From Methanobacteriota archaeon (GTDB taxonomy: Archaea > Thermoplasmatota > Thermoplasmata > SG8-5): DNA of 44,660 nucleotides. The stretch lies in NCBI GenBank assembly GCA_030670795.1, contig DAOVAY010000002.1:1-44660 (forward strand), read 5' to 3'. Made by a program: the position numbers and the translations under genes. The first letter of the stretch is position 1. Each line of letters begins with the position of its first letter. Below are positions 219-30,728 of the stretch, one piece after another. Under the pieces are notes generated by a model. That model was not told the origin of the DNA. It was given only the letters and a program-made list of their open reading frames with translations, and made no database searches.

Positions 219-695
219 TTACCAATCCACAACCCAAACAGAATCCGCAGGGACGTGCACCCAGTAGCCTTCACCGGGCTTCATCATGTAAGAATCAGAA
301 AGCTGGGTTAGCCTATATGGATTCATCGCATCGTACCCTACTACTGTATCATAACCTGTTCCAGCAAGGGCGTCGGCGATCGTCTTCTCGGAGAAAGCAG
401 GATAGCTGACAAGGTTCCACCCCGTGTACAGATTGATAATCGTAGAGGTTGGAATAGGCCCAGTGACAGTCAAATTAACATTAGGTTCAGTGATGTTAAT
501 CCAGAATCCAACTTTGTGATTTATTGTATCAAAATCGTTCAGAGAATCTGGTTTGTAGGTGTTGTGCGACTTCCAAGGTTCAGGGCTTAGAGTGTCGTAG
601 GTTTGGATGATGTCCCATTTACCGTTGATTGAGCTGAACACTTGGTCTATTGATTCGTTGGATTGTTCAAGTGGTATGGAAATAAGATTCCAGCC
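219..695 (-). other. shared C-terminal module (CTD), copy 1 (158 aa)
   Basis: GWNLISIPLEQ...KVGFWINITEP...GWNLVSYP...KPGEGYWVHVPADSVWVVDW-stop. It aligns over its full length with the seven other copies. Confidence 0.85.
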
Positions 696-3600
696 CATTT
701 GCAGAGGTATCTCCACTGCAGTGTCGATTACATTTAAATTAACGTAAATGACAACGGAATCTTCGTTCGGATCGTTGCTTTGGATAGTGAAATTAGCCTG
801 GTAGAATCCCAGAGTAAGTGTTGTGGTATTTACGGTGACAGTGTGATTTGCATTCTCAAAGGGAAGGAGAGAGCCAGTTAATGGAGACACAGTTAACCAA
901 TCAGGCCACAATGTATTGTTTCCTATTTGAATGTCATCTATCCACATGTAATCAGGATTGCCGACAGAGCTTATTCCAAATTGGAGAGATTTAATGTCCG
1001 AAGACGGACTCCTAAACCCTCCATCATCTATAATTAATACGCCATTATGCCAACAATCAAAGGTGTTGTTGTTAAAGTCATGTATAATTATCATATCATT
1101 CCATGAGTTGGCAACGTAACTAACTCCAGTATTTATCCAGCTTCCTGCATAATATTTAATAAAGCCGTCATCTCTAAATCCTATATATGCAGCAGTTTGA
1201 CTATCGTCAAAATTACCAACGCTATTCTGAGTGAGAAGATATCCAAATATAGTCGTGCTAGTTGGATATACACTGAAATAATATGGTTCATCAGTAAACC
1301 CTCCGGGGATGTCATGATGGCAGAAACCGAACCATACGGAAGGGCTTAGTAAATACATGCTGTGCGGTCCGGATTTCGAACGCTGGTCATCAACTTCACA
1401 CGCTAGTGGAATATAATTTGACTGTGTGTCAGGCACCCAATTAATCGGTGGACTTGTGCCCTCTACCTCACTATCAAAATTGTCACTAAAGAAAATATTA
1501 GATTGATAATCTCCTATAATATCGTAATAGAGATCTGCCAATCCATCGTTTCCAACAGATAGATCATCTGAATCCGTCATTCCTGTCTGAACAACAAAAT
1601 CAAATCCACTAGGGCTTACCCTGATATCGGGTTGGTCAGTGATGTTGACGGTCATGTTCAACCAGTTGTTCAAGGTGAATGTCTCTCCTGCCACTGGGAC
1701 GGCGTACAGGGTCAACGTGTATTGGGCTGCTAGGGGCGGTACCCACCCAAAGGATACTGTATCTTGGCTTCCTGAGAGAATGCTCGATATCACAGTAGAA
1801 TTCTCCAGCCCGAAGTCCACGAGCAGCCTGACTTCAACGTTTGTCTCCTCATTCAATCCCAGGTTCAGAATTGTACCATTCACCCATTGTTTCTTTCCTG
1901 TATCCAAATTGCCTTCTATGGTCATGTCATGGATACAGATATCATGGGGCGCAGAAACGACTGTCAGGTTGACAGGTACTATTGTAGGGTCCTCCTCAGG
2001 ATCATTGTTCAAGATTGTGATATTGGCGTGGTAAAGGCCCGGTGTTAGGGTCGTGGTGTTCACCATCACTGTGTGGTTGACAACTCCAAAAGGAGCAATT
2101 GAGCCTTTAAGGGGAGTCACAGATAGCCAATCAGGCCAAATGGGAGTTTTATTTGCTATTTGAATGTCATCTATCCACATGTAATCAGGATTGCCGACAG
2201 AGCTTATTCCAAATTGGAGAGATTTAATGTCCGAAGACGGACTCCTAAACCCTCCATCATCTATAATTAATACACCATTATGCCAACAATCAAAAGTATT
2301 GTTGTTAAAGTCATGTATAATTATCATATCATTCCATGAGTTGGCAACGTAACTAACTCCAGTATTTATCCAGCTTCCTGCATAATATTTAATATTGCCG
2401 TCATTTCTAAATCCGATATATGCAGCAGTTTGACTATCGTCAAAATTACCAACGCTATTCTGGGTGAGAAGATATCCATATATAGTCGTGCTAGTTGGAT
2501 ATACACTGAAATAATATGGTTCATCAGTAAACCCTCCGGGGATGTCATGATGGCAGAATCCGAACCATGTTGAAGGGCTTCGTAAATACAAGCTGTGCGG
2601 TCCGGATTTCGACTGCTGATCATCAACTTCACACGCTAGTGGATTATAATTTGTCTGTGTGTCAGGCACCCAATTAATCGGTGGACTTGTGCCCTCTACC
2701 TCACTATCAAAATTGTCACTAAAGAAAATATTAGTCTGATAATCTTCAATAATGTTATAATTAAGGTCTGCCAATCCATCGTTCCCAATAGACAGATTAT
2801 CTGAATCCGTCATTCCTGTCTGAACTACAAAATCAAATCCACTAGGGCTTACCCAAATATCAGGTTGGCCAGTGATATTGACTGTCATGTTCCGCCAGTT
2901 GTTCAAGGTGAATGTCTCTCCTGCCACTGGGACGGCGTAAAGGGTCAACGTGTATTGGGCAGCTAGGGGCGGTACCCACCCAAAGGATACTGTGTCTTGG
3001 CTTCCTGAGAGAATGCTCGATATCACAGTGGAATTCTCCAGCCCGAAGTCCACGAGCAGTCTGACTTCAATATTTGTCTCATTGTTCAATCCTTGGTTCA
3101 GAATTGTACCATTCACCCATTGTTTCTTTCCTGCTTCCAAATTGCCTGCTATGGTCATGTTATAAATACAGATATCGTGGAATGTGGAAAGGACTGTTAG
3201 GTTGACTGGCACAATCGTGGGATCCTCGTCAGGGTCATTGTTCAAGATTGTGATATTGGCCGTGAAATAGCCGGGAGTCAGAGTGGTGGTGTTCACCATC
3301 ACCGAGTGATTGACAGCCCCAGAAGGTGCGATTGAACCGCTACCAGGCGATACAGTGAGCCACTCAGGAAGACCAAAGCTAGCATTTTTAGTCAACCAAT
3401 TTGCGGAGTTCAACATCAGCTTTAACAAGTTAGGGTCGGTCCAAGCGTTAAAAAAGCTATCTTTGCCAACGGTAGCGAAATGGACAGCCATGCCAGAGCC
3501 GTAACTCCTGAAGCCCACTTCATCGTTGGCCATGCTACCGTCAACAACGACAGTGGTGCTAGCGTTGGCGGTCATCACACCGAAAGAATGTGGAACGGTC

Positions 3601-4229: not shown

Positions 4230-4282
4230 CTCTTCCTCCTCAACTAAAGAATATATGTATAATCTCATTCTTTAGTCTTTCG

Positions 4283-4759
4283 CTACCAATCCACAACCCA
4301 AACAGTATCCGCGGGAACGTGCACCCAGTAGCCCTCGCCGGGCTTCATCATGTATGAATCCGACAAGGGACTGATATGATACGGTGCACTTGCATTGAAG
4401 CCCTCCACGGCATCGTATCCTGTACCTGCCAGGGAGTCGGAAATGCTTTTTTCAACGAGAGAGGGATAACCTATAAAGTCCCAACCTGCCGTCAACGGTA
4501 TTGAAAGAGTTGAATTGAATTTATCTCCCTTAACGGTAAGCGTTACTCCTGGCTCGGTGATGTTTATCCAGTAAGCCCGCAGATGGTTCATCTCCTCTAA
4601 ATCGTTCAATGATGCAGGTCGGTTTATGTTATTTGATATCCAAGTTGAATCAGTGGAATTATATGTCTGGATGTAGTCCCATTTTCCCGCGATACTTACA
4701 AGGACCGAATCTATTGACCAGTTAAGTTGGCGGACTGGTAAGGAAATCAGGTTCCAGCC
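4283..4759 (-). other. shared C-terminal module (CTD), copy 2 (158 aa)
   Basis: GWNLISLPVRQ...LRAYWINITEP...GWDFIGYPSLVEKSISDSLAGTGYD...KPGEGYWVHVPADTVWVVDW-stop. Confidence 0.85.
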
Positions 4760-6103
4760 TTCTTGGAGTGGGATGTCATGTTCGGTATATTCGAATGGAG
4801 CCATCAGAGGGTATTCATCAACGTTAGAACCACCCTGGATATTCGCGTATTTCGTGTCGCCAATGCCGTCGCTGCCTGGTTGATCCTGGTCAGGACCGTG
4901 ATATAAGTCAATACCGGTGTAATCGGACCAATAGTTACCGCCGGAGGGGTAGCTGTCATCCCAGAAGTTGTTACCTAAATCCCATCCTTGGTCAGTGTTG
5001 GTGATGAGGTTGTTGTGATAGATCCTGTTGTTGCTGGAGGGTTCGAGATAGATGCCATTGTCGTTGTTTGAGACAGTGTTGTTTCGGATGGTGTTGTTGC
5101 TGGAGGATTCGAGATAGATGCCATTGTCGTTGTTCGAGACAGTGTTGTTCTGGATGGTGTTGTTACTGGAGGGGGAGTCGAGATGGAAGCCATACCAGTT
5201 GTACGAGGCACTGTTGTTCTGAATGGTGTTTCTGATGGAGGATTCGAGATAGATGCCATTGATGTTGTTTCTGTTTGCAGTGTTGTTCTGGAGGGTGTTG
5301 TTGTTAGAGGAGGAGAGGTAGATGCCATGCGAATTGTTAGTGGCATTGTTGTTTGCTATGATGTTATTATTGGAGTCGACAAGGAAGATGCCATTGACGA
5401 AGAAGTTTGTGTGTGCGGTGTTGTTCAGGAGGGTGTTGTTGTTTGAGAAGAAGAGATAGATGCCCTCCCAGCTGTTCCAAAAGACGGTGTTGTTTGCGAC
5501 TGTGTTGTTGCTGGATACAAGGAGGAAGATACCGAATCTGCTGTTCACAGAAACGATGTTGTCCTTCACTGTGTTGTTATATGATTGAAAGCCGAGGTAG
5601 ATTCCATGCCAGTTGTTCCAAGAGAACGTGTTGTTCAGGATGGTGATGTTGCTGGAGGGACCGAGATAAATACCATGTCGGTTGTTCGAGTTTGCCGTGT
5701 TGTTGGCGATTGTACCATTCTGGGTATTGTATAATATCAATCCAGTGTCCCAAAAATATTCTCCTGAATTACCGTTCGCATCATGTAAATAACAGTTCCT
5801 CACTACAAAATAATCTGTTGTATTCCCAATGTAAATACAATAGCCAAAACCATTACCGTTTATATCCCAATCATCAATTATCCAGGGATTCCAAATTGTA
5901 CCATTGCCAGTAGCCCAATTGACAACCCCATGGGCTGCATCAAATTCTGAATTGGAGTCAATTCTGATCGGAGCATGTGGAATATACGTCACTCCATTGT
6001 ATATAATCGCCTTTCCTTCAGTATCTTCACCCACATCTATTAAAATGAATGCAGAGCCGAACGTCAGCATGATGGAAAGCCAGATTACACAAATCCGTTT
6101 CAT
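4283..6103 (-). CDS. secreted right-handed parallel beta-helix (PbH1/NosD-like) protein with the shared CTD
   Basis: ATG at 6103 is preceded by an AGGAGG RBS. Signal peptide: MKRICVIWLSIMLTFGSAFILIDVG. About 12 coils of 22 aa follow the pattern NNTxxNNTxSxNxxxGIYLxxSS. A NosD-type end module follows (NFWDDSYPSGGNYWSDYTGIDL...GSDGIGD). The protein ends ...KPGEGYWVHVPADTVWVVDW-stop. Confidence 0.9.
   Translation of the reverse strand: MKRICVIWLSIMLTFGSAFILIDVGEDTEGKAIIYNGVTYIPHAPIRIDSNSEFDAAHGVVNWATGNGTIWNPWIIDDWDINGNGFGYCIYIGNTTDYFVVRNCYLHDANGNSGEYFWDTGLILYNTQNGTIANNTANSNNRHGIYLGPSSNITILNNTFSWNNWHGIYLGFQSYNNTVKDNIVSVNSRFGIFLLVSSNNTVANNTVFWNSWEGIYLFFSNNNTLLNNTAHTNFFVNGIFLVDSNNNIIANNNATNNSHGIYLSSSNNNTLQNNTANRNNINGIYLESSIRNTIQNNSASYNWYGFHLDSPSSNNTIQNNTVSNNDNGIYLESSSNNTIRNNTVSNNDNGIYLEPSSNNRIYHNNLITNTDQGWDLGNNFWDDSYPSGGNYWSDYTGIDLYHGPDQDQPGSDGIGDTKYANIQGGSNVDEYPLMAPFEYTEHDIPLQEGWNLISLPVRQLNWSIDSVLVSIAGKWDYIQTYNSTDSTWISNNINRPASLNDLEEMNHLRAYWINITEPGVTLTVKGDKFNSTLSIPLTAGWDFIGYPSLVEKSISDSLAGTGYDAVEGFNASAPYHISPLSDSYMMKPGEGYWVHVPADTVWVVDW
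5010..5780 (-). repeat. coding beta-helix coil repeats with a 66-nt (22-aa) period
   Basis: The periodic protein motif is x-N-N-T-x-x-N-N-x-x-x-x-N-x-x-x-G-I-[YF]-L. Two adjacent units, 5042-5107 and 5108-5173, match at 61 of 66 nt by my count. Confidence 0.8.
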
Positions 6104-9511: not shown

Positions 9512-9994
9512 TTACCAATCCACAACCCAAACACTATCTTCCACTAAATGCACCCAATACCCCTCACCAGGCTTCATAACATAGGTTGGACCCACTTCTT
9601 TAATCCGATAAGGTTCTCCAAGATCGAATACCTCGACACTATCCGCGGTTGTCCCGAACAGAGCATTCGCTACCGTCATAGTGTCGTTAAGGGTGGGATA
9701 ACCGACGAGGTTCCAGCCTGCGTATAAGGGAATAGTAGTAGAGGTCGGAATATAACCACTTACCGTCAGGTTCACGCCTCCAGGTTCAGTTATGTTAATC
9801 CAGAATCCAACCTTGTGATTTAAGGTATCAAAATCATTCAGGGATTCTGGTTTGTAGGTATTGTTCGTTTTCCAAGGCTCTGGGCTCAGCGGATCGTAGA
9901 TTTGGATGATGTCCCATTTGCCTGTAATCGAACTTAGTACTTGGTCAAGGGATTCGTCAGATTGTTCAAGGGGTAAAGAAACGAGGTTCCAGCC
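9512..9994 (-). other. shared C-terminal module (CTD), copy 3 (160 aa)
   Basis: GWNLVSLPLEQSDESLDQVLSSITGKWDIIQIYDPLSPEPWK...KVGFWINITEP...GWNLVGYP...VWVVDW-stop. The first half is very close to copy 1. Confidence 0.85.
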
Positions 9995-18789: not shown

Positions 18790-19284
18790 TCACCAATCAA
18801 CTACCCATACTGTGTCAGCGGGCACGTGCACCCAGTATGCCTCTCCCGGCTTCATCATGTACGTGTCTGCAAGTGGGCTAAGCCGATAAGCTGCGGTTGC
18901 GTTGTATCCTTCCACTCCGTCGTAGCCAGTACCTGCCAGTGCGTCTGATATCTGTCTCCCTACCAGGGACGGGTAGCCGACCATATTCCAACCGACCTTG
19001 AGGTTAATGGCCGTACTCGAAGGCACAACACCGCTTACGTTAATGTAGCCGTCACCAAGTGAGCCCGCTTCGACATACAACCAAATGCCCATGGATTCAT
19101 TGACATCGGTGAGATCATTCAACGAGGTCGGTTTGGAAAGCATCCATGATTTCCAGGGGTCAATCGCAACGAATGAGTCGTAATATTCCAATATTGTCCA
19201 GGTAGTATTACTATCTTGATCCAGGAGAACGGTTGGTACGGTTGTGTCACTCGGAATCAACGGAAGGGATATGAAGTTCCAACC
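18790..19284 (-). other. shared C-terminal module (CTD), copy 4 (164 aa), mosaic
   Basis: The first half resembles copy 7 (member D). The second half resembles copies 1 and 2. See findings. Confidence 0.8.
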
Positions 19285-21341: not shown

Positions 21342-21845
21342 TCACCAATTAACATTCCAAATCGTATCGCTATCCACCCTTATCCAGTAGGCCTCGCCAC
21401 GCTTTAACACATAGCTTCCGAGCAATACATCTATACCGTAGGGCGCTCCACTGTTATAACCATCGACTCCCGTGGCTCCAGTATCCGCGATGAGGTCGTC
21501 AACGTCGTAAAACGAGTCATTCCTGGCAGGGTAACCAACCATGTTCCAGCCTGCCTTCAGATTGACGGCCGTACTAGTCGGTTCGGTGCCTGCAACCCTA
21601 ATGATTCCGTCTCCGAGCGCGAGGGCATCGGGAATGAATAGCCAGGCACCCATCGTGTTGTTTACCTCATCGAGGTCGTTCAGAGACGATGGTCTAGACT
21701 CGCCCCATGCCTTCCAATGATCCTGGCCATCTACAGCGTCATAGTATTGGAGACGTGTCCATGTGGTATCACCGTCCAAATCTGTGAACACCTCTGGAAC
21801 CGAGTTGTTATCTGGAATAAGCGGTGTCGAAATGAAGTTCCAGCC
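21342..21845 (-). other. shared C-terminal module (CTD), copy 5 (167 aa)
   Basis: GWNFISTPLIPDNN...MGAWLFIPD...GWNMVGYPARNDSFYDVDDLIADTGAT...WNVNW-stop. Confidence 0.8.
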
Positions 21846-24041
21846 GATGTTTAAAGGTCCGATGGCATACGTAGACCCAAGCGAGGGCGTGACACTCGTT
21901 TGGGTGCTACCATAATCAAATTCCAAAATGAAGTTGGAGAATGGGGTTTCCCAAGTTATTTGTATGTTGTCAAAACCGCCCTGGCAGTCTGTGGTGCTTC
22001 CGGCTCCGGTCACCCATGCCCCTATTTTCAAATAATAAGTGGTTGAGGAATCTACAATGCCGATAACATCAATAGGTCCCTGCGAGGTCCACGAGGTTGT
22101 TCCGGTCACCGACTGGCTCCAGATCTCAGTACCAATCGTGGGCAGTCCTGGTGTTGAATCGATGAATACATAGAATGTCACATCGGTAACGCTTGCATAT
22201 TGACTGCATATCCAGTCAAAACTTAACGTTGCTGAGGTGGGCGCACCCGAAGGGATGAATGCCTGTTCCCAGTAGCCGCCCAGTTCCGTGTTGAATTTGT
22301 CACTGGTGAATTGCACGTCAACCCACCCGCCCGGATTGCCACCGGCAGGTTGCCAGGTTTCATCAACAAGGGATGTGTAAGCTCCCCAATCGTGTCCGGT
22401 CCATCCCGTAGAGCTTGCGTTCAAATTGGGATTTGCAGTCGCTTCAATCGTCGGTCCGCCTCCTCCGGTGATGTTGAGCCACAGCTCTACGATGAGACTG
22501 TCCCCATCGGTTATCGCCCCTGCCAATGTGTCATTCCAGGTGAACGTATGTCTGCTTGTGAAGGCTCCAATATTCTCGTCATCTTTTATCGTGGTGTCCA
22601 ATATTGCCGGGCCGGTGGAGGTGTATAATTTTGCGAAGAGGTATCCGGTGAACGCATTATTTCTCAAATATCCGTTAACCTCGAACGTCCAATCACCGTT
22701 GATGGTCGTGTCGGTGAAGGTCTTTGTCGTTTCCCAGGTGTCGATGAGAATATCCCCTATAGCAGATACAGGCACTTCAATATTGTTGGGTTGCCTGTCC
22801 ATTGGTTTCATGTCCAGGTCCAGGTTTGAGCCGGCCATTTGGGCCTGGAGGAACCATTGGTCATCAATGATATTGTCAATAGAAAAAGGTTGCCTTAAGG
22901 TGCAGACCGTTGTCTGGATAAAAGAGTCAGTGGCACTCACCCTGATGATATAATTCGGGCTGTCTGGCAATGTGGTCGTATCCCATGTGTAGATACCATC
23001 ATTGTTGTCGATTCCACTCTCCAGTGTAAACCAACTAGTTCCGCCGTCCGGGCTGTATTCAACCGTGACATCCAGGGTGGAATTCGCATCCTCATAATCG
23101 CCGGCCGTCCAGATGATGTCATAGGAGCCGGGGAGTATCTGGTCCACAGCACCGGGCGTGAGTATATCCACCGAGGGGGGGTGGTCGCCGAAGTTGCCGA
23201 AGTCCTCAACTGCGGCTTGATCGACTACCATAGTGCCAAGGTTTTGCACCCATATTGTCACGCCGAGCTCATTGGTCAACCATTCCGGCTCAATAGTGAA
23301 GTTTCTGGTTAAGTCTAAAGAATCCCATTGGTCTGCCCCGCTTGGCCATATCGCTTCACCACCAGCATCGGGCAGCATGTCCCACATGGTCCATCTGAAC
23401 TCGGTCTCTCCATTCGAACCTGTGGTGCCGAATCTGTCCACCACATCAATATGGTCCTCCCACAGGGCGAACTGGACGATAAGGTCGGTCGCGGCGATGG
23501 GTTCTACAGCCTCAATGCGAGCCTGAACAGTACCGGTCAAGTTCGCGACATCAAGGCTGCCAGTTGTGGTTATGGTGATGTTGGCAGGAATTGCCAGTCT
23601 TTCGTCGAACCATCCGTTGATCGTCGGTCCGTTCGGGATAGGGTCAAAGGATTTTTTATAAATGCCATCGACCTCGGTCCATGGATTTGTGCTTGCTCCG
23701 TAATACAATTCCCTCTCAAAGTTTTCCAGACCATTGTAAATGAAAACAGGGTCGTTACCAGCGATGGAAGTATGATAATACAACGGAGCCACTTGTGAGT
23801 GGGTGTAGTTTTCCACTGCCGGTTCGAGATAGTTCTTCAAAATCGTGCATTGGCCGCAGTTCCAGTGCGTGAACTCCTCCATTAACACTACCCTTTGGGC
23901 GCCTGCCCTCGGCTCTTCCCCCCAATGTATTGATTCGGGCGTGACATGTGGGTTTGGCCCCATTCCGACTGTTTTTATCGTCAGACAGGTCAGAATCAGC
24001 ATAACCGCCAATGCGGATGCCAAGACCTTTGCCAAGCTCAT
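21342..24041 (-). CDS. operon member B: secreted CxxC thioredoxin-like head + Asp-box Ig-like module + jelly-roll-like regions + shared CTD
   Basis: The track start at 24062 is GTG. I prefer the ATG at 24041, 2 nt after the upstream TGA. N-terminus: MSLAKVLASALAVMLILTC. Head motif: VLMEEFTHWNCGQCT. It contains EYSPDGGTSWF and ends ...RGEAYWIRVDSDTIWNVNW-stop. It is a paralogue of member E. Confidence 0.88.
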   Translation of the reverse strand: MSLAKVLASALAVMLILTCLTIKTVGMGPNPHVTPESIHWGEEPRAGAQRVVLMEEFTHWNCGQCTILKNYLEPAVENYTHSQVAPLYYHTSIAGNDPVFIYNGLENFERELYYGASTNPWTEVDGIYKKSFDPIPNGPTINGWFDERLAIPANITITTTGSLDVANLTGTVQARIEAVEPIAATDLIVQFALWEDHIDVVDRFGTTGSNGETEFRWTMWDMLPDAGGEAIWPSGADQWDSLDLTRNFTIEPEWLTNELGVTIWVQNLGTMVVDQAAVEDFGNFGDHPPSVDILTPGAVDQILPGSYDIIWTAGDYEDANSTLDVTVEYSPDGGTSWFTLESGIDNNDGIYTWDTTTLPDSPNYIIRVSATDSFIQTTVCTLRQPFSIDNIIDDQWFLQAQMAGSNLDLDMKPMDRQPNNIEVPVSAIGDILIDTWETTKTFTDTTINGDWTFEVNGYLRNNAFTGYLFAKLYTSTGPAILDTTIKDDENIGAFTSRHTFTWNDTLAGAITDGDSLIVELWLNITGGGGPTIEATANPNLNASSTGWTGHDWGAYTSLVDETWQPAGGNPGGWVDVQFTSDKFNTELGGYWEQAFIPSGAPTSATLSFDWICSQYASVTDVTFYVFIDSTPGLPTIGTEIWSQSVTGTTSWTSQGPIDVIGIVDSSTTYYLKIGAWVTGAGSTTDCQGGFDNIQITWETPFSNFILEFDYGSTQTSVTPSLGSTYAIGPLNIGWNFISTPLIPDNNSVPEVFTDLDGDTTWTRLQYYDAVDGQDHWKAWGESRPSSLNDLDEVNNTMGAWLFIPDALALGDGIIRVAGTEPTSTAVNLKAGWNMVGYPARNDSFYDVDDLIADTGATGVDGYNSGAPYGIDVLLGSYVLKRGEAYWIRVDSDTIWNVNW

Positions 24042-24043
24042 TT

Positions 24044-24550
24044 TCACCAATCCACTACCCACGTCGTGTCACTGCCCACCTTTATCCAATAGGCTTCGCC
24101 GCGCTTGAGTACGTTGTCCAGGGCCAGGGCCTCGATTCGATATGGTGCCGCCGGATTATACCCCTCGACGTAAGTGGCTCCCGTGTCTGCAATGAGCTGT
24201 GTGACGTCATAGGCGGAGTCATTCTGTGCAGGATAACCCACGAGATTCCAGCCCGAGAAAAGTTGAACCAAGGTTCCTGACGGTTCTGACCCGAGCCCAA
24301 CCGTCAACACCTGATCCCCGGAATTCGATGTCAGATGTATCCAGAATCCCATCGTATTGTTAATGTCGGGCATATCGTTCAGAGCTGCGGGTTTGCCCTT
24401 CATGTATGTCTTCCAGGGGTCAACCGGATTATTGGGGTCGTACCACATGATATAATCCCAGGTAGTGTTCCCATCTCCCCAGAGTGCGTCGTCGAATATC
24501 GATGATGCATTGCCTGTGGCATCGATCGGGAACGAGACAAACCTCCAGTC
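24044..24550 (-). other. shared C-terminal module (CTD), copy 6 (~168 aa)
   Basis: DWRFVSFPID...MGFWIHLTS...GWNLVGYPAQNDSAYDVTQLIADTGAT...TWVVDW-stop. The first GWN is degenerate (DWR). Confidence 0.75.
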
Positions 24551-25411
24551 CGGGGCTCCGGGGTCCACAATGGGCACGTCATAGTCCCAGAATACATCCC
24601 ATTCGTCCACCACGTGGGATTGGTCGATAATCTGGGTGCTGTTGGCTTGTACCCAGATGCTCATCCCAAGCTTGTCAATATCCCATTCCGGTTCAATTAT
24701 GAAATCATAAGTAAGTTCAACCGAAGCTCCGGCGGTCGTTCCGCCCGACCACAGCTCTGTCCCGTTCGCATTTGGTATCATGTCCCACATGGTCCAGTGC
24801 CAGGGGTCCACGCCGTTGGGCGCAGACTGGTTGAACCTCTCGAACACGGGAATATCGTCCTCCCAGAGTGCGAACTGGGCCACAAGGTCGGTTGCAACGA
24901 TGTCCTCCTCTGCCACGAAGTTGGCCGTGACCCTGCCGGTCAGGTTGTTCATGAACAGCGTCCCGGAAGCGTCGATGGAGATGTTCGCCGGTAGCGCAAG
25001 CCGCTCGTCTATCAGGTTCTTGAAGTAGGTCTCGTTGGCCTGGGCAGGGAACCATCTGCCGTCGATTCTCATGTGTGGGAGGAAGGCCACTCCATAATAA
25101 ACACTCCTCGCAAAGTTTTCGAGGGGGTTGTACTCGAACGCCGGGTCGACGGGGAGTACGGTGTGGTGTTTGTAATACAACGGCGCGACGTTGTCATACC
25201 CGTAATAGTTTACCACGATGGGGCAGTAACAGGTTTCCGAGGGCACGCAGAGGCCGCAGTGCCAGTTGGTGAACTGCTCGTACATCACGCACCTCTGAAC
25301 CCCTTTGGGCTCAGGTTCGGGGGTTTCGGTCCCCACAGTCAAACATCCTAACACACTGAATGCCATTAAAACAACAATAAGAATTGCCCAGTGTTTCTTA
25401 CAATTCATCAT
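24044..25411 (-). CDS. operon member C: the minimal family member, with CxxC thioredoxin-like head + shared CTD only
   Basis: I prefer the ATG at 25411 (MMNCKKHWAILIVVLMAFSVLGC), 10 nt after the upstream TAA. Head motif: VMYEQFTNWHCGLCV. The protein ends ...RGEAYWIKVGSDTTWVVDW-stop. Confidence 0.88.
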   Translation of the reverse strand: MMNCKKHWAILIVVLMAFSVLGCLTVGTETPEPEPKGVQRCVMYEQFTNWHCGLCVPSETCYCPIVVNYYGYDNVAPLYYKHHTVLPVDPAFEYNPLENFARSVYYGVAFLPHMRIDGRWFPAQANETYFKNLIDERLALPANISIDASGTLFMNNLTGRVTANFVAEEDIVATDLVAQFALWEDDIPVFERFNQSAPNGVDPWHWTMWDMIPNANGTELWSGGTTAGASVELTYDFIIEPEWDIDKLGMSIWVQANSTQIIDQSHVVDEWDVFWDYDVPIVDPGAPDWRFVSFPIDATGNASSIFDDALWGDGNTTWDYIMWYDPNNPVDPWKTYMKGKPAALNDMPDINNTMGFWIHLTSNSGDQVLTVGLGSEPSGTLVQLFSGWNLVGYPAQNDSAYDVTQLIADTGATYVEGYNPAAPYRIEALALDNVLKRGEAYWIKVGSDTTWVVDW

Positions 25412-25421: not shown

Positions 25422-25910
25422 TTACCAATTGATAGTCCATGTCGTATCACTATTTACATTTAACCAATACGCCTCGCCGTGCTTGAGCACGTAACCGCCG
25501 GCCAGCACTTCAATATTATACTGCGCTGCCGGGTTGAAACCCTCCACATCCGTGGCACCGGTGTCCGCGATCAGGTCGTTCACGTCGTAGGCAGAATCGT
25601 CGGTCGCAGGGTAGCCGACCATGTTCCAGCCTGCTTTGAGGTTAATAACCGTCGTCGTTGGAGCCAGACCACTCACGTTGATGAAACCGTCGCCCAACGA
25701 ACCCACCTCAACGTACAGCCAGACGCCCATTGATTCATTGACCGCGTATAGGTCGTTCAGCGCAGGCGGTTTAAAGCTCGACCACGACATCCACATTCCC
25801 GCATCGTAATATTTCAACCTGGTCCAGGTCGTATCACCGTCTTGGTCGAGAAGTGCTTCCGGTAAGGTCGTATCCAGCGGCATCAACGGCGTCGAAACGT
25901 AATTCCACCC
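25422..25910 (-). other. shared C-terminal module (CTD), copy 7 (162 aa)
   Basis: GWNYVSTPLMPLDTT...MGVWLYVEVGSLGDGFINVSG...GWNMVGYPATDDSAYDVNDLIADTGAT...WTINW-stop. Confidence 0.8.
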
Positions 25911-27959
25911 TTCCTGCACAGGGATGAGCATATTGGCTAACTGGTGCACGGTAAGGTCCACGGGCACATGAAGCGCATAGACGTCCGGGTCGTTGTTCCA
26001 GATGCATAATTGAGTTTGATAATTACCTGGTGCGAGACTGGTGGCATCGGCGGTTAGCATGACGTCCGCCTGCGAAGCCGGGATTATCGTGCCCGAGGTC
26101 GGATTCACCGAGAGCCAGCCTCCGGAACCGTCGTTGGTTATCAGCGCTTGGTGAATCGAACCTCTCGGTCTTCTAGGGTTGCTAATCGTAGCCGCCGGAG
26201 GTAAGCCGATAGTGTTGCCGTAGGTCCCGGACTCCATCGTTCCGAATGATACTGGATAAGGCACAGGGTCATTGGCCGGCTCCTCGAATCCCCATTCCAC
26301 GTTGCCCGAATATTGAAACGCGACAACGTAATAGTTACCCACCGCCAGGGGAACGCTTATCGGCCCGGAGGAATACCATTTTTCACCGGTTCCGGAACTC
26401 GGTATGTAGGTTTCGTGAATCTTATTGTAAGTGCCTCCGATAGTGGCTCCTTCGTAAACCAGGAAGTATAATTCTCTGTTCCCGGTTATGCCCAGATACA
26501 TCTTTATCTCGTTCAAGGTCGTGGACGTCGCCACCGAATAAATGTTGCCGCAATCATAGCTGGTGATAGATAAAGTCCCGTACTTCCAGCTGCCGATGAT
26601 GTCTGCGGTTGACCCGATTTGGATATTGTGGTCGAGGTTAATCAGACCCTGATTGCCCAGTGTCAGGTTGTCGAATCCGACCTCTCCTTCTAAGACGTTG
26701 AAATTAAAGTCACCTGGGTTATATGTCATATCAGGAGTTGTTCGGATCTCACACACTTTCTCGTGTATGTTATTTGTGATATTTGCCTCTCCACCTATTA
26801 TTTCGCACTGGACTCCCACATCATAGAAACCTGCCACCGTGGGCGCGGTCCAATCGAAGGTGACCATCTCACCGTACCCGGGATTAAGAGAGGTAACGTA
26901 TTTTGTTTGTTCCACCGAGCCCTCTATTAACAGGTCAACCTGAATGTTGGTCTCTACGCTGTCCCCGTAGTTGCACACCGTCCCGTTTACTTGAACGGTC
27001 TTCCCTGCCTTGATGTAATTATGTGGTCCCTCGTAAGTGTGCAGTGGGTCGCCGTCGCACTCCAAGCCGTAGGTCGCCAGTTCATGGGCCGGTAAAGGGT
27101 CATCCGGTTGGAAGTTCTCGATAGCGGCCTGCTCAACCCTTTGAGTATTATCGTCCTGGATGAAGACGCTGACTCCCAGATTGGCCAAGACCATGCCGGG
27201 TTCTATTGTGAACGTCCTGTTGAACCAAGCCTTGTCTCCGGGATTTGCACCCGCTGGGAAGACCGGCTCCCCGACCGCGTCCGGCAGCAGGTCCCACATA
27301 GCCCAGTGATAGGTAGAGAAGTATTGGCCCTTGAAGCCGAATCTGGGGATGACGTCGATGTCGGTCTCCCAGAACCCGAACCTTATCACGCGGTTCGGAT
27401 TTGGCTCGATTGCCTCATGGGCCTCGACGACGACCGAGACCTCTGAAAGACCAAGGTCACCGCTGGTGTTGATCGAGAATCTTGTCAGTTGCCCCAATGC
27501 ATGGTTGAAATATGACCAGTAAACTTCCCCGCTGCCGCCGCGATGTCTGATCTTGGCGCCGTCCTGGCGGATGTGCGGTACGCCACTAAACATTCCGTAA
27601 TATTGCCGTCTAGCAAACGCGTCCACCGCGGAATACAGCCAAATTGAATCATTGCTTGCCGGCCACGACATGTGAGGATACAGCGGAGCCACCAATGAAT
27701 CATTGTAATAATGGTCCAGAACAGGTACGGACGCAGCCTCCACGGCAACGCAGGGACCGCATCTCGAATTCGTGTGGTCTTCCCAAAGTACAGTTCTCAA
27801 CAATCCAGTGTACGGAATATTGCTGGTTCCGGAACCACCGGGTGCCAAGGCGATTTCGGTGTTCGCCTGGTCGGATGCGATCGTATTCGTAAAGAACGAA
27901 AGCCCACTAATGATCATAAGCAGGGCCATCGTCACCCCGTGTATCTTACCGTATTTCAT
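25422..27959 (-). CDS. operon member D: secreted CxxC thioredoxin-like head + CARDB-like/Ig-like modules + shared CTD
   Basis: ATG at 27959 lies 6 nt after GAGGAGGT. N-terminus: MKYGKIHGVTMALLMIISGLSFFTNTIAS. Head motif: VLWEDHTNSRCGPCV. The protein ends ...HGEAYWLNVNSDTTWTINW-stop. Confidence 0.9.
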   Translation of the reverse strand: MKYGKIHGVTMALLMIISGLSFFTNTIASDQANTEIALAPGGSGTSNIPYTGLLRTVLWEDHTNSRCGPCVAVEAASVPVLDHYYNDSLVAPLYPHMSWPASNDSIWLYSAVDAFARRQYYGMFSGVPHIRQDGAKIRHRGGSGEVYWSYFNHALGQLTRFSINTSGDLGLSEVSVVVEAHEAIEPNPNRVIRFGFWETDIDVIPRFGFKGQYFSTYHWAMWDLLPDAVGEPVFPAGANPGDKAWFNRTFTIEPGMVLANLGVSVFIQDDNTQRVEQAAIENFQPDDPLPAHELATYGLECDGDPLHTYEGPHNYIKAGKTVQVNGTVCNYGDSVETNIQVDLLIEGSVEQTKYVTSLNPGYGEMVTFDWTAPTVAGFYDVGVQCEIIGGEANITNNIHEKVCEIRTTPDMTYNPGDFNFNVLEGEVGFDNLTLGNQGLINLDHNIQIGSTADIIGSWKYGTLSITSYDCGNIYSVATSTTLNEIKMYLGITGNRELYFLVYEGATIGGTYNKIHETYIPSSGTGEKWYSSGPISVPLAVGNYYVVAFQYSGNVEWGFEEPANDPVPYPVSFGTMESGTYGNTIGLPPAATISNPRRPRGSIHQALITNDGSGGWLSVNPTSGTIIPASQADVMLTADATSLAPGNYQTQLCIWNNDPDVYALHVPVDLTVHQLANMLIPVQEGWNYVSTPLMPLDTTLPEALLDQDGDTTWTRLKYYDAGMWMSWSSFKPPALNDLYAVNESMGVWLYVEVGSLGDGFINVSGLAPTTTVINLKAGWNMVGYPATDDSAYDVNDLIADTGATDVEGFNPAAQYNIEVLAGGYVLKHGEAYWLNVNSDTTWTINW

Positions 27960-27971
27960 ATCAAAACCTCC

Positions 27972-28472
27972 TCACGGATTCACCGTCCAGACGGCATCCG
28001 CTGTAACATGCACCAGATAAGCGTGCCCAGGCTCCATGTCCACCGAGCCCAGATCAGTTTCCTCCCGTATCCTGTACGGCTGGACCGGGTCGAATACCTC
28101 AATCATGTCCGCAACTACCGGCAGGGTGATAATCGCCGCTCTCACGGTGGTCGACGGATACCCCACCATGTTCCACCCGGTCTTCAGGTCGATGTTTGTC
28201 ACGCCAGGATCCGTTCCCGCGACCTTAATGAAACCGTCGCCCAGTGCAATGGCGTCCGGTATGTACAGCCACAGCCCCATCTTATGGTCGGCTGTGTTAA
28301 GGTCGTTAAGCGCTGACGGTCTGAAATCGGCCCAGGTCTTCCAGGGATCCAATACATCGAACGCGTCAAAATGCTGGAGCATGGTCCACGTAGTGTCACC
28401 GTCAAGGTCGAACAGGCCACCCGGGGCCTCCGTATCATCAGGTATCAACGGGGTCGAGATGAAGTTCCAGCC
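27972..28472 (-). other. shared C-terminal module (CTD), copy 8 (166 aa), the most divergent
   Basis: GWNFISTPLIPDD...MGLWLYIPD...GWNMVGYPSTT...PGHAYLVHV...VWTVNP-stop. It ends in P rather than W. Confidence 0.75.
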
Positions 28473-30728
28473 CACGTTCAGCGGTCCGATATCGTATGTC
28501 TGACTGAACGACGGTGTCACACTTGACTGTGTAGCACCGAAGCCCGTCTCCATGATGAAATTCGCTACGGGGGTCTGCCATGAGATGTCGACGTTATCAT
28601 ATCCTGCTATCTCCAGCGTCTGCTTGGAAAGACCGACTTCCAGCACGCCAACCTTCAGGTAATAGGTCGAGGTCGAGGTGACGACTCCGCCAACGTCCAA
28701 GGGTCCGACCGATGCCCAGGAGGTCGCGGAATTCACCATCGCGCTCCATATCTCGGTACCTATCGTCGGCGTCCCTCCTTCAGAATCAATGAACACGTAA
28801 AAGTATAGGTCAGCAAGATTACTCGGTCCCCATTGACTGCAAATCCAGTCGAAGTTCAGCATCACGTTCTGCGGGGTTCCGGTCGGGGTGAAGGCGTACT
28901 CCCAGTACGAACCGCAATCCGGCAAGGGCTCCGGGCCTCCGATCTTATACCAGTAATCGGTGCTCACCCAGCCGCCCGGGTTACCGCCAGCGGGTAGCCA
29001 TTCCAAGTTGTTGAGGTTCTGCCTCATCCAATGATACGGCTGCCAGCCGTCCGGTCCAGCATTGAATTCGCTAAGGAACTGCTCGAACGTTACAGCTTTG
29101 CCCGCGGTCACGTCCAGGCACAGCTCGATTATTAAAGAATCTCCATCAGGTATCACACCGCTGAGGGCTTCGACCCATGTGAACAGGTGGCTGGTCTGGA
29201 AGTTCCCGACGTTCTCGTCATCATAGATGTCTGCGTAAAGCGGTGTCACCTGGTCTGATGATGCAAAAACGTTCGCGTAAAGGTAAGCATCGAAACCGTC
29301 GTTTCTCAGGTACCCGTTGACGTTGAAGGTCCAGTTGCCGTATATGGTCTTATCACTGAAGGTGCTGGTGGTTTCCCACCTGTCAATAACGTATTGGCCA
29401 GTAGCAGTGATTATCGTTGTGATGGTTGTCAGATTCTTCTCGCACGGCATCATGTTAAGGTCAAGGTTTACGGGACCACTAACCTGGAAGTACCATTCGT
29501 CATCGGGAATGTTGTCAACCGAAAACGGCTGCCTGAAGGTCCTCACCGCTGTCTCGCCACCGGAATCGGTGGCGCTCAGCCTCATGATATAGTTCACACC
29601 GTCGGCCAAAGGCGTTGTGTCCCAGGTGAACGTGCCGTCGTTGTTGGCAGTGCCGCTCTCCAGCACGAACCACGTGCTTCCCCCGTCAGGGCTGTATTCC
29701 AGTGTTATGTCCAGCGTGCTGTCGACGTCTTCCAGGTCGGTCGCATCCCAAGTGATGGTCTCGACACCGCCCAATATCTGGTCCTCCCCTGCAGGGTGGG
29801 TCATCTCGACGTATGGTTCATGATTGTAAAAGTTACCGAAGTCCTCAACGTGCGCCTGCTCGACTAGCTGGGAGCTATTAGACTGGACCCATATGGACAT
29901 GCCCACCATATTATCAACGACTTCCCAGGCGGGGTCCAATGTGAAGTTTTGAGTTATTTCCAAGGTGTCCCATTTCTTGGCTCCGTTCGGCCATATCGGT
30001 GTTCCGAACGAATCAGGAATTAATTTCCAACAAGCAAATCTGAACTCACCCGATGGCGGTGACCCAGCTGGAGGATCACCGGGATCATAGAATCTCGGGT
30101 CGATCTGTATGTGGTCCTCCCAGAGAGCGCATTGCAGGATTAGGTCGGTAATATTTATGTCGTTCACGGCCTCCAGCTGGATAGTTACTGTGCCTGAGCC
30201 TCCGGATATGCTGCCAGTAGATGTGATCGAGATGTTTGCGGGTATAGGCAGGCGCTGGTCGAACCACGCGTGTATCTCCGGGTCCTCCGGAACCCCTTCT
30301 TCACTATCTGTTCGCCAGCTGCCGTCTATCCACGTGTAGGGATTGGCCGACGAGCCATAGTAAGTCAAGAATCTCTGCACGCAGGGTTCCCAGTTTCGTT
30401 GGAATATCGGGTCGCTGCCGCCGTTCGTGTGAATCCATAGCGGCGCTATCTGGTCGAACCCGTACGTGTCGACGGTTCCGTAAAGCCCTGTCCCGCCATT
30501 GATTCCCTCTGCCAGCTCATGACAGAAGTGACACGTAACGAAGGTGAACTCCTCCAACATCACGGTTCTAGGCACGCCCGACAGCATTGGTTCTTCTTCG
30601 CCAACATCAGAGCACGGCTCTACCTCTGTAGGATTTGATGCCAATCCAACTGTGAATGTAGCAAATACACAGGATATTATCAACGTAACAATGACAATAA
30701 ATGTCACGCCTCCTCTGATGATTCTCAT
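27972..30728 (-). CDS. operon member E (first gene): secreted CxxC thioredoxin-like head + Asp-box Ig-like module + jelly-roll-like regions + a divergent shared CTD
   Basis: ATG at 30728 follows a GAGGAGG RBS. N-terminus: MRIIRGGVTFIVIVTLIISC. Head motif: VMLEEFTFVTCHFCH. It contains EYSPDGGSTWF and ends ...PGHAYLVHVTADAVWTVNP-stop. Confidence 0.9.
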   Translation of the reverse strand: MRIIRGGVTFIVIVTLIISCVFATFTVGLASNPTEVEPCSDVGEEEPMLSGVPRTVMLEEFTFVTCHFCHELAEGINGGTGLYGTVDTYGFDQIAPLWIHTNGGSDPIFQRNWEPCVQRFLTYYGSSANPYTWIDGSWRTDSEEGVPEDPEIHAWFDQRLPIPANISITSTGSISGGSGTVTIQLEAVNDINITDLILQCALWEDHIQIDPRFYDPGDPPAGSPPSGEFRFACWKLIPDSFGTPIWPNGAKKWDTLEITQNFTLDPAWEVVDNMVGMSIWVQSNSSQLVEQAHVEDFGNFYNHEPYVEMTHPAGEDQILGGVETITWDATDLEDVDSTLDITLEYSPDGGSTWFVLESGTANNDGTFTWDTTPLADGVNYIMRLSATDSGGETAVRTFRQPFSVDNIPDDEWYFQVSGPVNLDLNMMPCEKNLTTITTIITATGQYVIDRWETTSTFSDKTIYGNWTFNVNGYLRNDGFDAYLYANVFASSDQVTPLYADIYDDENVGNFQTSHLFTWVEALSGVIPDGDSLIIELCLDVTAGKAVTFEQFLSEFNAGPDGWQPYHWMRQNLNNLEWLPAGGNPGGWVSTDYWYKIGGPEPLPDCGSYWEYAFTPTGTPQNVMLNFDWICSQWGPSNLADLYFYVFIDSEGGTPTIGTEIWSAMVNSATSWASVGPLDVGGVVTSTSTYYLKVGVLEVGLSKQTLEIAGYDNVDISWQTPVANFIMETGFGATQSSVTPSFSQTYDIGPLNVGWNFISTPLIPDDTEAPGGLFDLDGDTTWTMLQHFDAFDVLDPWKTWADFRPSALNDLNTADHKMGLWLYIPDAIALGDGFIKVAGTDPGVTNIDLKTGWNMVGYPSTTVRAAIITLPVVADMIEVFDPVQPYRIREETDLGSVDMEPGHAYLVHVTADAVWTVNP

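What the first reader, a model, noticed from the sequence alone, without database searches (positions are those of the whole stretch)
219..30728. Eight neighbouring secreted proteins with unrelated heads share one ~160-aa C-terminal module ending W-V-V-D-W-stop: candidate undescribed archaeal surface-display or adhesin-tip module
Seen in sequence:
- The last 158-168 residues of the minus-strand genes ending at 219, 4283, 9512, 18790, 21342, 24044, 25422 and 27972 align end to end.
- The shared pattern is G-W-N-[LFY]-[IV]-S-x-P ... S-L-N-D ... [MV]-G-x-W-[IL] ... G-W-N-[LM]-V-[GS]-Y-P ... G-E-[GA]-Y-W-[VIL]-x-V ... W-x-[VI]-[DN]-W-stop. The 27972 copy ends TVNP.
- The N-terminal parts are different folds: GATase-like plus jelly-roll repeats, a PbH1 beta-helix, a BNR propeller, and CxxC thioredoxin-like heads.
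- All eight begin with a signal or anchor helix.
- The module has no hydrophobic tail or basic end, so it is not a PGF-CTERM/archaeosortase-type signal. A genuine PGF-CTERM sits in this window at 30835-30925 for comparison.

Inference: this is a portable module. It either tethers diverse exoproteins to the envelope or S-layer, or provides a common ligand-binding tip. I cannot place it in a named domain family from memory, which is the limit of this claim.
Basis: partly seen in the sequence, partly recalled or inferred. Interest (0 to 1): 0.8.

Follow-up and report, generated by a model that had tools for sequence, protein, structure and literature searches.

The report
Shared tail module of secreted proteins
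Eight neighbouring secreted proteins of an uncultured Thermoplasmatota archaeon end in the same ~170-residue, two-lobed beta module. The module belongs to a very large domain family, absent from the curated libraries searched, that occurs in many bacteria and archaea; it most likely tethers or targets surface proteins, but its function is untested.

Summary
Exactly eight minus-strand ORFs end in a homologous ~170-aa module (profile E 1e-72 to 1e-84; most distant pair BLASTP E 7e-21).

**Structure.** The module is an internal tandem duplication of an ~80-aa all-beta unit (hhalign 97.6%). AlphaFold2 predicts it with pLDDT 96 and pTM 0.89. It has no match in Pfam, NCBIfam, PDB sequences or Foldseek-PDB.

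**Distribution.**
- It is not archaea-specific. It is a Thermoplasmatota-expanded subfamily of a wider "GWNLIS…GYW" tandem module.
- That wider family occurs in Cloacimonadota, Bacteroidota, Chloroflexota and several archaeal phyla (profile-profile 99.1%).
- The family has 9,471 clusters at 50% identity. One MAG carries at least 17 copies.

**Position and partners.**
- About 90% of copies end at the protein's last residue.
- Carriers have signal peptides and no other membrane anchor.
- Heads are diverse (beta-helix, BNR, CARDB, PKD, peptidases).
- N-terminal, internal and pre-transmembrane placements also exist.

Five of the eight window genes are paralogs sharing a CxxC Omp28-like head. The halves of the module have been shuffled between copies.

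**Best reading (about 0.4).** A non-covalent surface-retention or docking module. The main rival (about 0.3) is an outward ligand or adhesion module. This is an uncurated domain family of unknown function, not a new kind of system.

The parts
219..722 (-). Module copy 1 (C-terminus of ORF 219-4268; repeat B = 222-455). Head: ThuA-like + CARDB + BACON_2/choice-of-anchor-D-like Ig repeats.
   Evidence: hmmsearch E 7.5e-78; Pfam/NCBIfam heads; AF2 model pLDDT 96.1
4283..4789 (-). Module copy 2 (C-terminus of ORF 4283-6103; repeat B = 4286-4519). Head: NosD/right-handed beta-helix.
   Evidence: hmmsearch E 2.2e-72; Pfam NosD 2e-60
9512..10021 (-). Module copy 3 (C-terminus of ORF 9512-11266; repeat B = 9515-9751). 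Head: BNR propeller.
   Evidence: hmmsearch E 2.4e-76; Pfam BNR_2
18790..19311 (-). Module copy 4 (C-terminus of ORF 18790-21348; repeat B = 18793-19026). Head: CxxC Omp28-like + CARDB + BACON_2. The module is a mosaic: repeat A resembles copy 7, repeat B resembles copies 1 and 2.
   Evidence: hmmsearch E 7.3e-82; per-half identities; head paralogy
21342..21872 (-). Module copy 5 (C-terminus of ORF 21342-24062; repeat B = 21345-21584). Head: CxxC Omp28-like; 48% identical overall to ORF 27972-30728.
   Evidence: hmmsearch E 8.3e-84
24044..24571 (-). Module copy 6 (C-terminus of ORF 24044-25450; repeat B = 24047-24286). Head: CxxC Omp28-like only; lipobox-like VLGC in the signal sequence.
   Evidence: hmmsearch E 1.3e-74
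25422..25937 (-). Module copy 7 (C-terminus of ORF 25422-27959; repeat B = 25425-25664). Head: CxxC Omp28-like + CARDB + BACON_2; 48% identical overall to ORF 18790-21348.
   Evidence: hmmsearch E 3.5e-77
27972..28502 (-). Module copy 8 (C-terminus of ORF 27972-30728; repeat B = 27975-28211). It ends WTVNP. Its repeat B belongs to a different subtype ('TLP..AD..V.D').
   Evidence: hmmsearch E 5.7e-73; per-half identities; alignment A3

Best explanation
The module is an autonomous extracellular binding unit built from two tandem ~80-aa beta domains. In this Thermoplasmatota lineage it has been recruited as a common C-terminal retention (docking) handle. After Sec export and signal-peptide removal, the head domains stay at the cell surface because the module binds non-covalently to a shared envelope component. 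That component could be a surface glycan or glycoprotein, an S-layer-like protein, or a dedicated receptor.

Shown: homology, internal duplication, a confident fold, a strong C-terminal bias, many copies per genome, diverse heads, signal peptides, and absence of any other anchor.

Inferred: that the module binds anything, and that its ligand is on the cell itself.
For: - **Position.** 131 of 144 top cluster representatives and 114 of 130 genomic copies end within 3 residues of the stop. The terminal Trp of W-x-[VI]-[DN]-W was replaced in the internal copies examined.
- **Copy number.** At least 17 and at least 14 distinct copies in single MAGs, both lower bounds. At least 566 loci in GTDB species representatives with one 9-aa pattern.
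- **Heads.** They are those typical of anchored surface proteins and exoenzymes: beta-helix, CARDB, PKD, BNR, FG-GAP, C25 and M14 peptidases.
- **No other anchor.** 81 of 123 complete representatives have an N-terminal hydrophobic signal. Only 3 of 144 have a later genuine transmembrane segment, and only 3 have a lipobox-like motif. All eight window proteins have one N-terminal hydrophobic segment only.
- **Anchor slot.** The module sits where other lineages place an anchor. A choice-of-anchor-D-like domain lies immediately upstream in ORF 219 (42 bits, cut-off 45). Choice-of-anchor V and Q domains lie directly upstream in bacterial relatives. The meaning of the term comes from 10.1101/2023.03.06.531300.
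- **Membrane-proximal cases.** In L024, P0152 and P0237 the module is the last folded domain before a linker and a C-terminal transmembrane helix.
- **Composition.** Rigid two-lobed model (pTM 0.89), aromatic-rich (7-10 Trp) and acidic.
Against: - No binding partner was identified, and no conserved neighbouring gene was found.
- The family also occurs in diderm bacteria and in archaea with unrelated envelopes.
- In Bacteroidota relatives the module is followed by another domain and a T9SS-like tail, so there it is not the anchor.
- Some archaeal proteins carry it at the membrane-distal N-terminus of transmembrane-anchored proteins: L034, and P0105, which is a membrane-bound wHTH regulator.
- A giant PKD protein carries five internal copies.
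- Some window proteins have lipobox-like signals (LLGC, VLGC), which could anchor the N-terminus and leave the module distal.
- The envelope of these uncultured archaea is unknown.
Confidence: 0.4

Rival explanations
1. Outward-facing ligand or adhesion module, similar to a carbohydrate-binding module (CBM) or lectin. The proteins are held by their N-terminal signal anchor or lipid, or are released. The C-terminal module binds an external polymer, particle or partner cell, targeting enzymes and adhesins to substrate.
For: - The module lies at the membrane-distal N-terminus of transmembrane-anchored proteins: L034, and P0105, which has two tandem copies on a membrane-bound wHTH regulator and so resembles a sensor domain.
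- P0126 has five internal copies interspersed with PKD domains and ends in a dockerin.
- The module occurs across phyla with unrelated envelopes.
- In Bacteroidota relatives it is internal to proteins that have their own T9SS-like tail.
- It is aromatic-rich.
- Lipobox-like signals occur in ORFs 18790 and 24044.
Against: - A ~90% placement at the exact C-terminus, with a conserved terminal motif, is unusual for CBMs.
- In the 72 carriers scanned, no glycoside-hydrolase family was among the 25 most frequent of the 36 families matched; beta-helix heads are the largest class (29 of 72), followed by BNR, CARDB, PKD and other repeat domains.
- No CBM or lectin match by HMM or Foldseek.
- Lipobox-like motifs are rare among carriers (3 of 123).
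Confidence: 0.3
2. Homotypic assembly module. The shared tails bind each other, or a membrane-anchored copy such as the L024/P0237 type, so that diverse heads are co-assembled into a surface coat or lattice.
For: - Many co-expressed paralogs form operon-like arrays with overlapping stops and starts.
- A pseudo-symmetric, rigid tandem unit.
- Transmembrane-anchored proteins exist whose last ectodomain is the module.
- Two broad-family members hit the Kustd1514 anammox S-layer family in NCBIfam (E 1.5e-7; the matched region was not determined).
Against: No multimer modelling was possible. There is no evidence of self-interaction. Sequence divergence between subtypes is large (31-40% identity). 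The Kustd1514 hit may lie in the flanks.
Confidence: 0.1
3. Folded C-terminal sorting signal, analogous to the T9SS C-terminal domain. It would be recognised by a dedicated export or attachment machinery and then cleaved.
For: - Strict C-terminal position with a conserved terminus.
- Dozens of cargo-like proteins per genome.
- A size per repeat similar to T9SS C-terminal domains.
- A C25 (gingipain-family) peptidase among the carriers.
Against: - Functional-looking N-terminal and internal copies exist.
- Bacteroidota relatives keep a separate T9SS-like tail after the module.
- No match to the Por_Secre_tail, T9SS type A or type B models.
- No co-occurring candidate machinery was seen.
- A monoderm archaeon does not need a second translocation step.
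Confidence: 0.07
4. Structural cap or stalk domain with no specific ligand. It would stabilise the C-terminus of repetitive beta-rich proteins and spread by gene duplication.
For: Five of the eight window copies are explained by whole-gene duplication. Many carriers are beta-helix or Ig-repeat proteins that often need capping.
Against: The module is combined with at least 20 unrelated head families, including globular enzymes. Its halves are exchanged between copies. Conservation is high across phyla. It occurs at either end of proteins.
Confidence: 0.08

Closest known systems
Listeria GW modules (InlB, Ami): tandem ~80-aa repeats named for a Gly-Trp dipeptide that tether surface proteins non-covalently to lipoteichoic acid (from my own knowledge)
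   Same: Tandem ~80-aa C-terminal repeats, each with a conserved G-W motif, on secreted proteins that lack a covalent or transmembrane anchor. The proposed non-covalent tethering logic is the same.
   Different: No Pfam GW match. No Foldseek match to any solved structure. A six-strand beta unit with one short helix rather than an SH3-like fold. The organism is an archaeon without teichoic acids.
T9SS C-terminal domains of Bacteroidota (Por_Secre_tail / type A and B sorting domains)
   Same: A folded beta domain at the extreme C-terminus of dozens of diverse secreted proteins per genome, including C25 peptidases.
   Different: No HMM match. The module is twice as long, being a tandem. Bacteroidota relatives carry the module and a separate T9SS-like tail. 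The module also works in N-terminal and internal positions.
PGF-CTERM / archaeosortase A signal
   Same: A common C-terminal feature of archaeal surface proteins. A PGF-like tail is present on a neighbouring gene (30835-31575).
   Different: PGF-CTERM is a short tripartite signal (motif, transmembrane helix, basic tail). The module is a 170-aa soluble, acidic beta domain with no hydrophobic tail.
Dockerin-cohesin system and SLH domains
   Same: One shared non-catalytic module appended to many different exoproteins that docks them to a common surface partner.
   Different: No Pfam match to Dockerin_1 or SLH. No partner (cohesin-like) gene was identified. One relative (P0126) carries both this module and a true dockerin.
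Uncurated bacterial and archaeal 'GWNLIS…GxGYW' tandem modules (e.g. MCF7912336.1 of a Cloacimonadota MAG; Ignavibacteriales, Bacteroidales and Chloroflexota MAG proteins)
   Same: Homologous: hhalign probability 99.1%, E 1.3e-18. 116 of 117 are recognised by the window profile. Same two-repeat organisation and GWN / GYW motifs.
   Different: They lack the Thermoplasmatota-specific Trp44/Trp58, the SLND loop and the W-x-V-D-W terminus. They are less strictly C-terminal (49 of 76) and are often followed by a 'YGDDP' domain.

Membership tests
PGF-CTERM (archaeosortase A substrate signal) | Short C-terminal tripartite signal: PGF motif, hydrophobic helix, basic tail | tested here: not met
   The eight tails end in an acidic beta strand (W-x-V-D-W) with no hydrophobic 17-mer outside the N-terminus. 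No NCBIfam hit.
T9SS C-terminal sorting domain (Por_Secre_tail / TIGR04183, TIGR04131) | Match to the family HMMs | tested here: not met
   No Pfam or NCBIfam hit in the module region at E<=0.1 or E<=1 on 70 members.
T9SS C-terminal sorting domain (Por_Secre_tail / TIGR04183, TIGR04131) | Obligatory extreme C-terminal position as the only sorting element | tested here: not met
   N-terminal and internal copies exist. Bacteroidota relatives have a further T9SS-like tail after the module (recognising that tail by its VYPNPA motif rests on my own knowledge).
Listeria-type GW module (Pfam GW) | HMM match and SH3-like fold | tested here: not met
   No Pfam hit. No match with E<=0.001 to any solved structure, for the whole module or for one repeat.
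SLH domain / dockerin type I | HMM match to PF00395 / PF00404 | tested here: not met
   Absent from all Pfam scans of module sequences. A dockerin was found only as a separate domain in P0126.
Carbohydrate-binding modules (any Pfam CBM family) | HMM or fold match to a CBM family | tested here: not met
   No significant match. The only CBM-named hits are CBM_21 at E 0.064 in the head of ORF 18790 and Foldseek CBM16 2zew at E 0.58, TM 0.20.
Carbohydrate-binding modules (any Pfam CBM family) | Demonstrated glycan binding | not testable with these tools
   Requires recombinant protein and glycan arrays.
Broad 'GWN…GYW' tandem beta-module family (uncurated; defined here) | Two tandem ~80-aa repeats, each with an L-x-x-G-W-N-[LMF]-[IV]-[SG] hairpin and a G-x-x-Y-W strand; significant profile-profile similarity | tested here: met
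   Internal repeat hhalign 97.6%, E 3.7e-12. A1 vs A5 99.1%, E 1.3e-18. Reciprocal profile hits for 116 of 117.
DUF1737 (PF08410) | Score above the Pfam gathering threshold | tested here: not met
   Weak hits in 9 of 70 members (best E 0.008). In the two broad-family proteins where the alignment was shown, the hits are below cut-off (14-15.5 bits vs 24) and lie at the GWN hairpin.

The most novel reading that the evidence does not exclude
The module is the docking handle of an undescribed non-covalent surface-display system in wall-less or S-layer-poor Thermoplasmatota. Dozens of exoenzymes and adhesin-like proteins per cell would be retained by binding one common envelope receptor or glycan through a two-lobed beta fold that has no solved relative. 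This would be a functional counterpart of SLH, GW or dockerin systems that evolved from a pan-prokaryotic extracellular domain.
Probability: 0.3. Interest if true: 0.75.

Novelty: new variant of a known kind. Interest (0 to 1): 0.55.

Why it matters
How uncultured sediment and groundwater Thermoplasmatota keep their many exoenzymes and adhesin-like proteins at the cell surface is unknown. These include the protein-degrading 'Ca. Proteinoplasmatales' (SG8-5; PMC9123169).

A module present in at least 9,471 protein clusters, with a confidently predicted fold that has no solved relative and no entry in Pfam or NCBIfam, is a concrete and testable handle:
- It marks the surface proteome of these lineages.
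- It defines a new domain family for annotation across many bacterial and archaeal phyla.
- It gives a small, well-behaved target (78- or 170-aa constructs) for binding and structural studies.

It does not by itself reveal a new mechanism.

Tried and rejected
- **Curated libraries.** Pfam, NCBIfam and PDB-sequence searches with single sequences and with four different profiles (A1, A4, A5, A8) found no family for the module. The designed-repeat hit 7obi (E 6e-4, no aligned stretch) and the Rtt103 hits (E ~0.8) are spurious.
- **Fold searches.** Foldseek of the whole module and of one repeat against the PDB gave nothing at E<=0.001. The best geometric resemblance is to small cupin-like barrels (TM 0.45, E>0.1). 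In BFVD there is one hit, a 587-aa 'putative hemin binding protein' of an uncultured marine phage (E 1.7e-4, TMq 0.62). I could not retrieve that sequence.
- **Viral carriers.** None in IMG/VR for the archaeal pattern. No tblastn hit in INPHARED phages.
- **Source genome.** Exact look-ups of two window proteins and a 40-mer DNA scan of GTDB representatives found nothing.
- **'Choice-of-anchor' test on the CxxC head.** The single-sequence search returned one close relative only, and the genome scan with the head alignment returned none. So I could not see what anchors head homologs use elsewhere.
- **Conserved neighbours.** Clustering of flanking ORFs in 119 loci gave only antisense shadow ORFs and TPR/STAND-like proteins. 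No candidate partner or sorting enzyme emerged.
- **Short 'standalone' module proteins** (P0014, P0020, P0032, P0056, P0057) lack signal peptides and look like truncated gene calls.
- **Literature.** Searches on Proteinoplasmatales, archaeosortase/Thermoplasmata and surface proteins found no description of the module.
Full report
**1. Observation**

The window has eight minus-strand ORFs: 219-4268, 4283-6103, 9512-11266, 18790-21348, 21342-24062, 24044-25450, 25422-27959 and 27972-30728. Their last ~170 residues align without large gaps (alignment A1: 34-66% identity to the first copy, 23 invariant columns).

A profile built from the eight and run on all six reading frames of the window hits exactly these eight C-termini (E 2e-72 to 8e-84). 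Nothing else scores below E 0.6, and the 2303-aa plus-strand beta-helix protein at 11509-18420 has no copy. The most distant pair gives BLASTP E 7e-21. Unrelated metagenomic proteins match at E down to 1e-65. The similarity is therefore real homology.

All eight proteins have one N-terminal hydrophobic segment and no other transmembrane-like stretch. The modules are acidic, contain 7-10 Trp and no Cys.

**2. Anatomy**

The module is itself a tandem duplication. Its first and second halves align at hhalign probability 97.6%, E 3.7e-12. Each half reads: beta-hairpin carrying L-x-x-G-W-N-[LFM]-[IV]-[SG]-x-P, a short helix, two strands, then a hairpin carrying G-[EA]-[GA]-Y-W.

AlphaFold2 with a 70-sequence alignment gives pLDDT 96.1 and pTM 0.89 for the whole module. 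It gives pLDDT 95.1 and pTM 0.81 for repeat B alone. This points to a rigid two-lobed all-beta unit.

Neither model has a Foldseek match in the PDB at E<=0.001. The best superpositions are small cupin-like barrels at TM 0.45 with E>0.1. In BFVD one 587-aa marine-phage protein matches (E 1.7e-4, TMq 0.62).

**3. Heads and local evolution**

Pfam and NCBIfam place the heads as follows:
- ORF 219: ThuA-like plus CARDB and BACON_2 (choice-of-anchor-D-like) repeats.
- ORF 4283: NosD beta-helix.
- ORF 9512: BNR.
- The five consecutive genes 18790-30728: an Omp28-like domain with a CxxC motif.

Those five genes are paralogs. Their heads match at 1e-14 to 1e-67, and two pairs are 48% identical over full length. 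For them the shared tail reflects gene duplication.

Module shuffling is nevertheless evident. ORF 18790 has a repeat A 68% identical to that of ORF 25422, but a repeat B 66-70% identical to those of ORFs 219 and 4283. ORF 27972 shares repeat A with ORF 21342 (64%) but not repeat B (34%).

**4. Family size, spread and position**

An exhaustive HMMER search of 1.84 billion cluster representatives finds 9,471 proteins at E<=1e-3, 4,317 at <=1e-10 and 916 at <=1e-30.

In GTDB species representatives, one 9-residue pattern alone recovers at least 566 confirmed loci. All of the best 80 lie in Thermoplasmatota-type MAGs, among them 'Ca. Proteinoplasmatales' SG8-5, Thermoplasmata RS_9_71, and UBA147, UBA280 and CSMAG_2432. 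At least 17 and at least 14 distinct copies occur in single MAGs.

Of 144 top representatives, 131 end within three residues of the module. The same holds for 114 of 130 genomic copies.

The exceptions look like genuine architectures rather than gene-call artefacts:
- Module followed by CARDB and ThuA-like domains.
- Module, Ser/Thr linker, then a C-terminal transmembrane helix with a basic tail (L024, P0152, P0237).
- Signal peptide, N-terminal module, Ig domains, then a C-terminal transmembrane helix (L034).
- Signal peptide, two tandem modules, PKD, a transmembrane helix, then a cytoplasmic HVO_0163/MarR-type wHTH (P0105).
- Five internal copies in a 3424-aa PKD protein ending in a dockerin (P0126).

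A head census of 72 carriers shows beta-helix/NosD (29), BNR (7), CARDB (5), and FG-GAP, PKD, Big_5, Flg_new_2, Peptidase_C25, M14, arylsulfotransferase, GDSL lipase and others.

**5. It is not archaea-specific**

A profile of the P0126 copies retrieves 148 proteins. They include MAG proteins of Cloacimonadota, Ignavibacteriales, Bacteroidales and Micrarchaeia. The window profile also recognises 116 of 117 of the listed hits, and the two profiles align at 99.1%, E 1.3e-18.

A genome scan with a broad alignment finds at least 468 loci in Cloacimonadota, Bacteroidota, Chloroflexota, Desulfobacterota, Verrucomicrobiota and Proteobacteria. It also finds loci in Aenigm-, Woese- and Altiarchaeota and in Methanosarcinales.

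In those loci 49 of 76 copies are C-terminal. The rest are followed by a ~100-aa 'YGDDP' domain and, in Bacteroidota, by what looks like a T9SS tail.

None of these sequences matches a Pfam or NCBIfam model in the module region. The window module is thus a Thermoplasmatota-expanded subfamily of a pan-prokaryotic, uncurated extracellular domain. The subfamily is marked by extra conserved Trp residues, an SLND loop and the W-x-[VI]-[DN]-W terminus.

**6. Mechanism**

No experiment or characterised relative exists, so function is inferred from architecture.

The reading I favour (about 0.4) is a non-covalent retention or docking handle. The evidence for it:
- Extreme C-terminal bias with a conserved terminus.
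- Dozens of carriers per genome with signal peptides.
- Essentially no other anchor: only 3 of 144 have a later transmembrane segment and 3 of 123 a lipobox-like motif.
- Heads typical of anchored surface proteins.
- Occupation of the slot after 'choice-of-anchor' domains (term explained in 10.1101/2023.03.06.531300).

The main rival (about 0.3) is an outward ligand or adhesion module. It is supported by the distal N-terminal copies on transmembrane-anchored proteins and on a membrane-bound regulator, by internal copies in a PKD giant, and by the spread across organisms with unrelated envelopes.

Homotypic assembly, a cleaved sorting signal and a mere structural cap are less likely. The reasons are given under the rival explanations.

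**7. Comparison and novelty**

The closest functional analogues are Listeria GW modules, SLH domains, dockerins and T9SS C-terminal domains. Membership in each was tested by HMM and fold search and was not met. The module is also clearly not a PGF-CTERM signal.

This is a new, very large domain family with an unmatched predicted fold. It fits a known kind of arrangement: a shared accessory module on secreted proteins. I rate interest at 0.55. The finding is useful and testable, but it is not a demonstrated new mechanism.

Noticed in passing
window 1-18400 vs 18800-44660: Sharp compositional break. GC is 28-48% (mean ~38%) on the left and 50-57% on the right, switching at ~18.4-18.8 kb. No tRNA in the window. 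This could be a genomic island or an assembly chimera. Against a chimera: ORF 18790, on the high-GC side, has a repeat B most similar to the low-GC-side copies.
   Followed up: partly
window 18790-19311 and 27972-28502: Mosaic modules: repeats A and B of one module have different closest relatives among the eight copies. This indicates recombination at the repeat boundary.
   Followed up: yes
window 18790-30728 (-): Five consecutive genes with overlapping stop and start codons form an operon-like array of paralogs. Each has an N-terminal ~290-aa domain with one CxxC motif, weakly similar to the Omp28 lipoprotein family. No relative of this head was found in GTDB representatives with the pattern used.
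   Followed up: partly
window 30835-31575 (-): A ResA/TlpA-like thiol-disulfide oxidoreductase (AhpC/TSA, Redoxin) ending GIPGFG + hydrophobic helix + RRR. It is a PGF-type tail by eye, but NCBIfam gives only a sub-threshold Loki-CTERM hit (18.9 vs 19.9). It lies next to the five CxxC-head genes, which hints at extracellular thiol redox chemistry.
   Followed up: partly
window 11509-18420 (+): A 2303-aa protein with multiple NosD/beta-helix blocks, a GH130-like (beta-mannoside phosphorylase-like) segment and a DUF5122/delta-60 repeat. It lacks the module although module-bearing genes surround it.
   Followed up: no
window 6790-9274: A Fer4 + thioredoxin-like protein (6790-7425, -), a 230-aa ORF with no Pfam hit (7531-8223, +) and a radical SAM protein (8210-9274, +) sit in the lowest-GC stretch between module genes.
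   Followed up: no
window 33644-44538 (-): A block of redox genes: HycI protease, NiFe hydrogenase large and small subunits, an Fer4_22/FAD/NAD protein, GltD-like pyridine nucleotide-disulphide oxidoreductase, a molybdopterin/NuoG-like protein, NuoF-like and NuoE-like proteins. This fits an anaerobic Thermoplasmatota host.
   Followed up: no
P0105 (862 aa, metagenomic; not in window): Signal peptide + two tandem modules + PKD + Ig-like region + transmembrane helix + cytoplasmic HVO_0163-type/MarR wHTH. This is a membrane-bound transcription regulator whose extracellular tip is the module.
   Followed up: partly
L136, L141, L160, L163, L168, L172, L178, L188 and other loci: In bacterial relatives the module is often followed, and in P0259/P0360 preceded, by a conserved ~100-aa domain with a '…GGY/FLMTT.VYGDDP.T…GE.L.F' motif. 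In Bacteroidota a 'VYPNPA'-type tail then follows. The domain was not identified.
   Followed up: no
alignment A7 (broad-family proteins P0253-P0369): Two members hit NCBIfam NF052345 (Kustd1514-family anammox S-layer glycoprotein, E 1.5e-7), three hit choice-of-anchor V and one choice-of-anchor Q. Which region matches the S-layer model was not determined.
   Followed up: no
L015, L026-L029, L050, L062, L072, L080, L092, L110: HTH-ATPase-TPR (STAND-like) or TPR genes recur next to module genes in about 11 loci. This probably reflects TPR similarity and the abundance of such genes rather than a functional link.
   Followed up: partly
BFVD entry A0A8D9C8P8: The only significant fold match of the module (E 1.7e-4, TMq 0.62) is a 587-aa 'putative hemin binding protein' from an uncultured marine phage. 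No sequence-level phage or IMG/VR relatives were found.
   Followed up: partly
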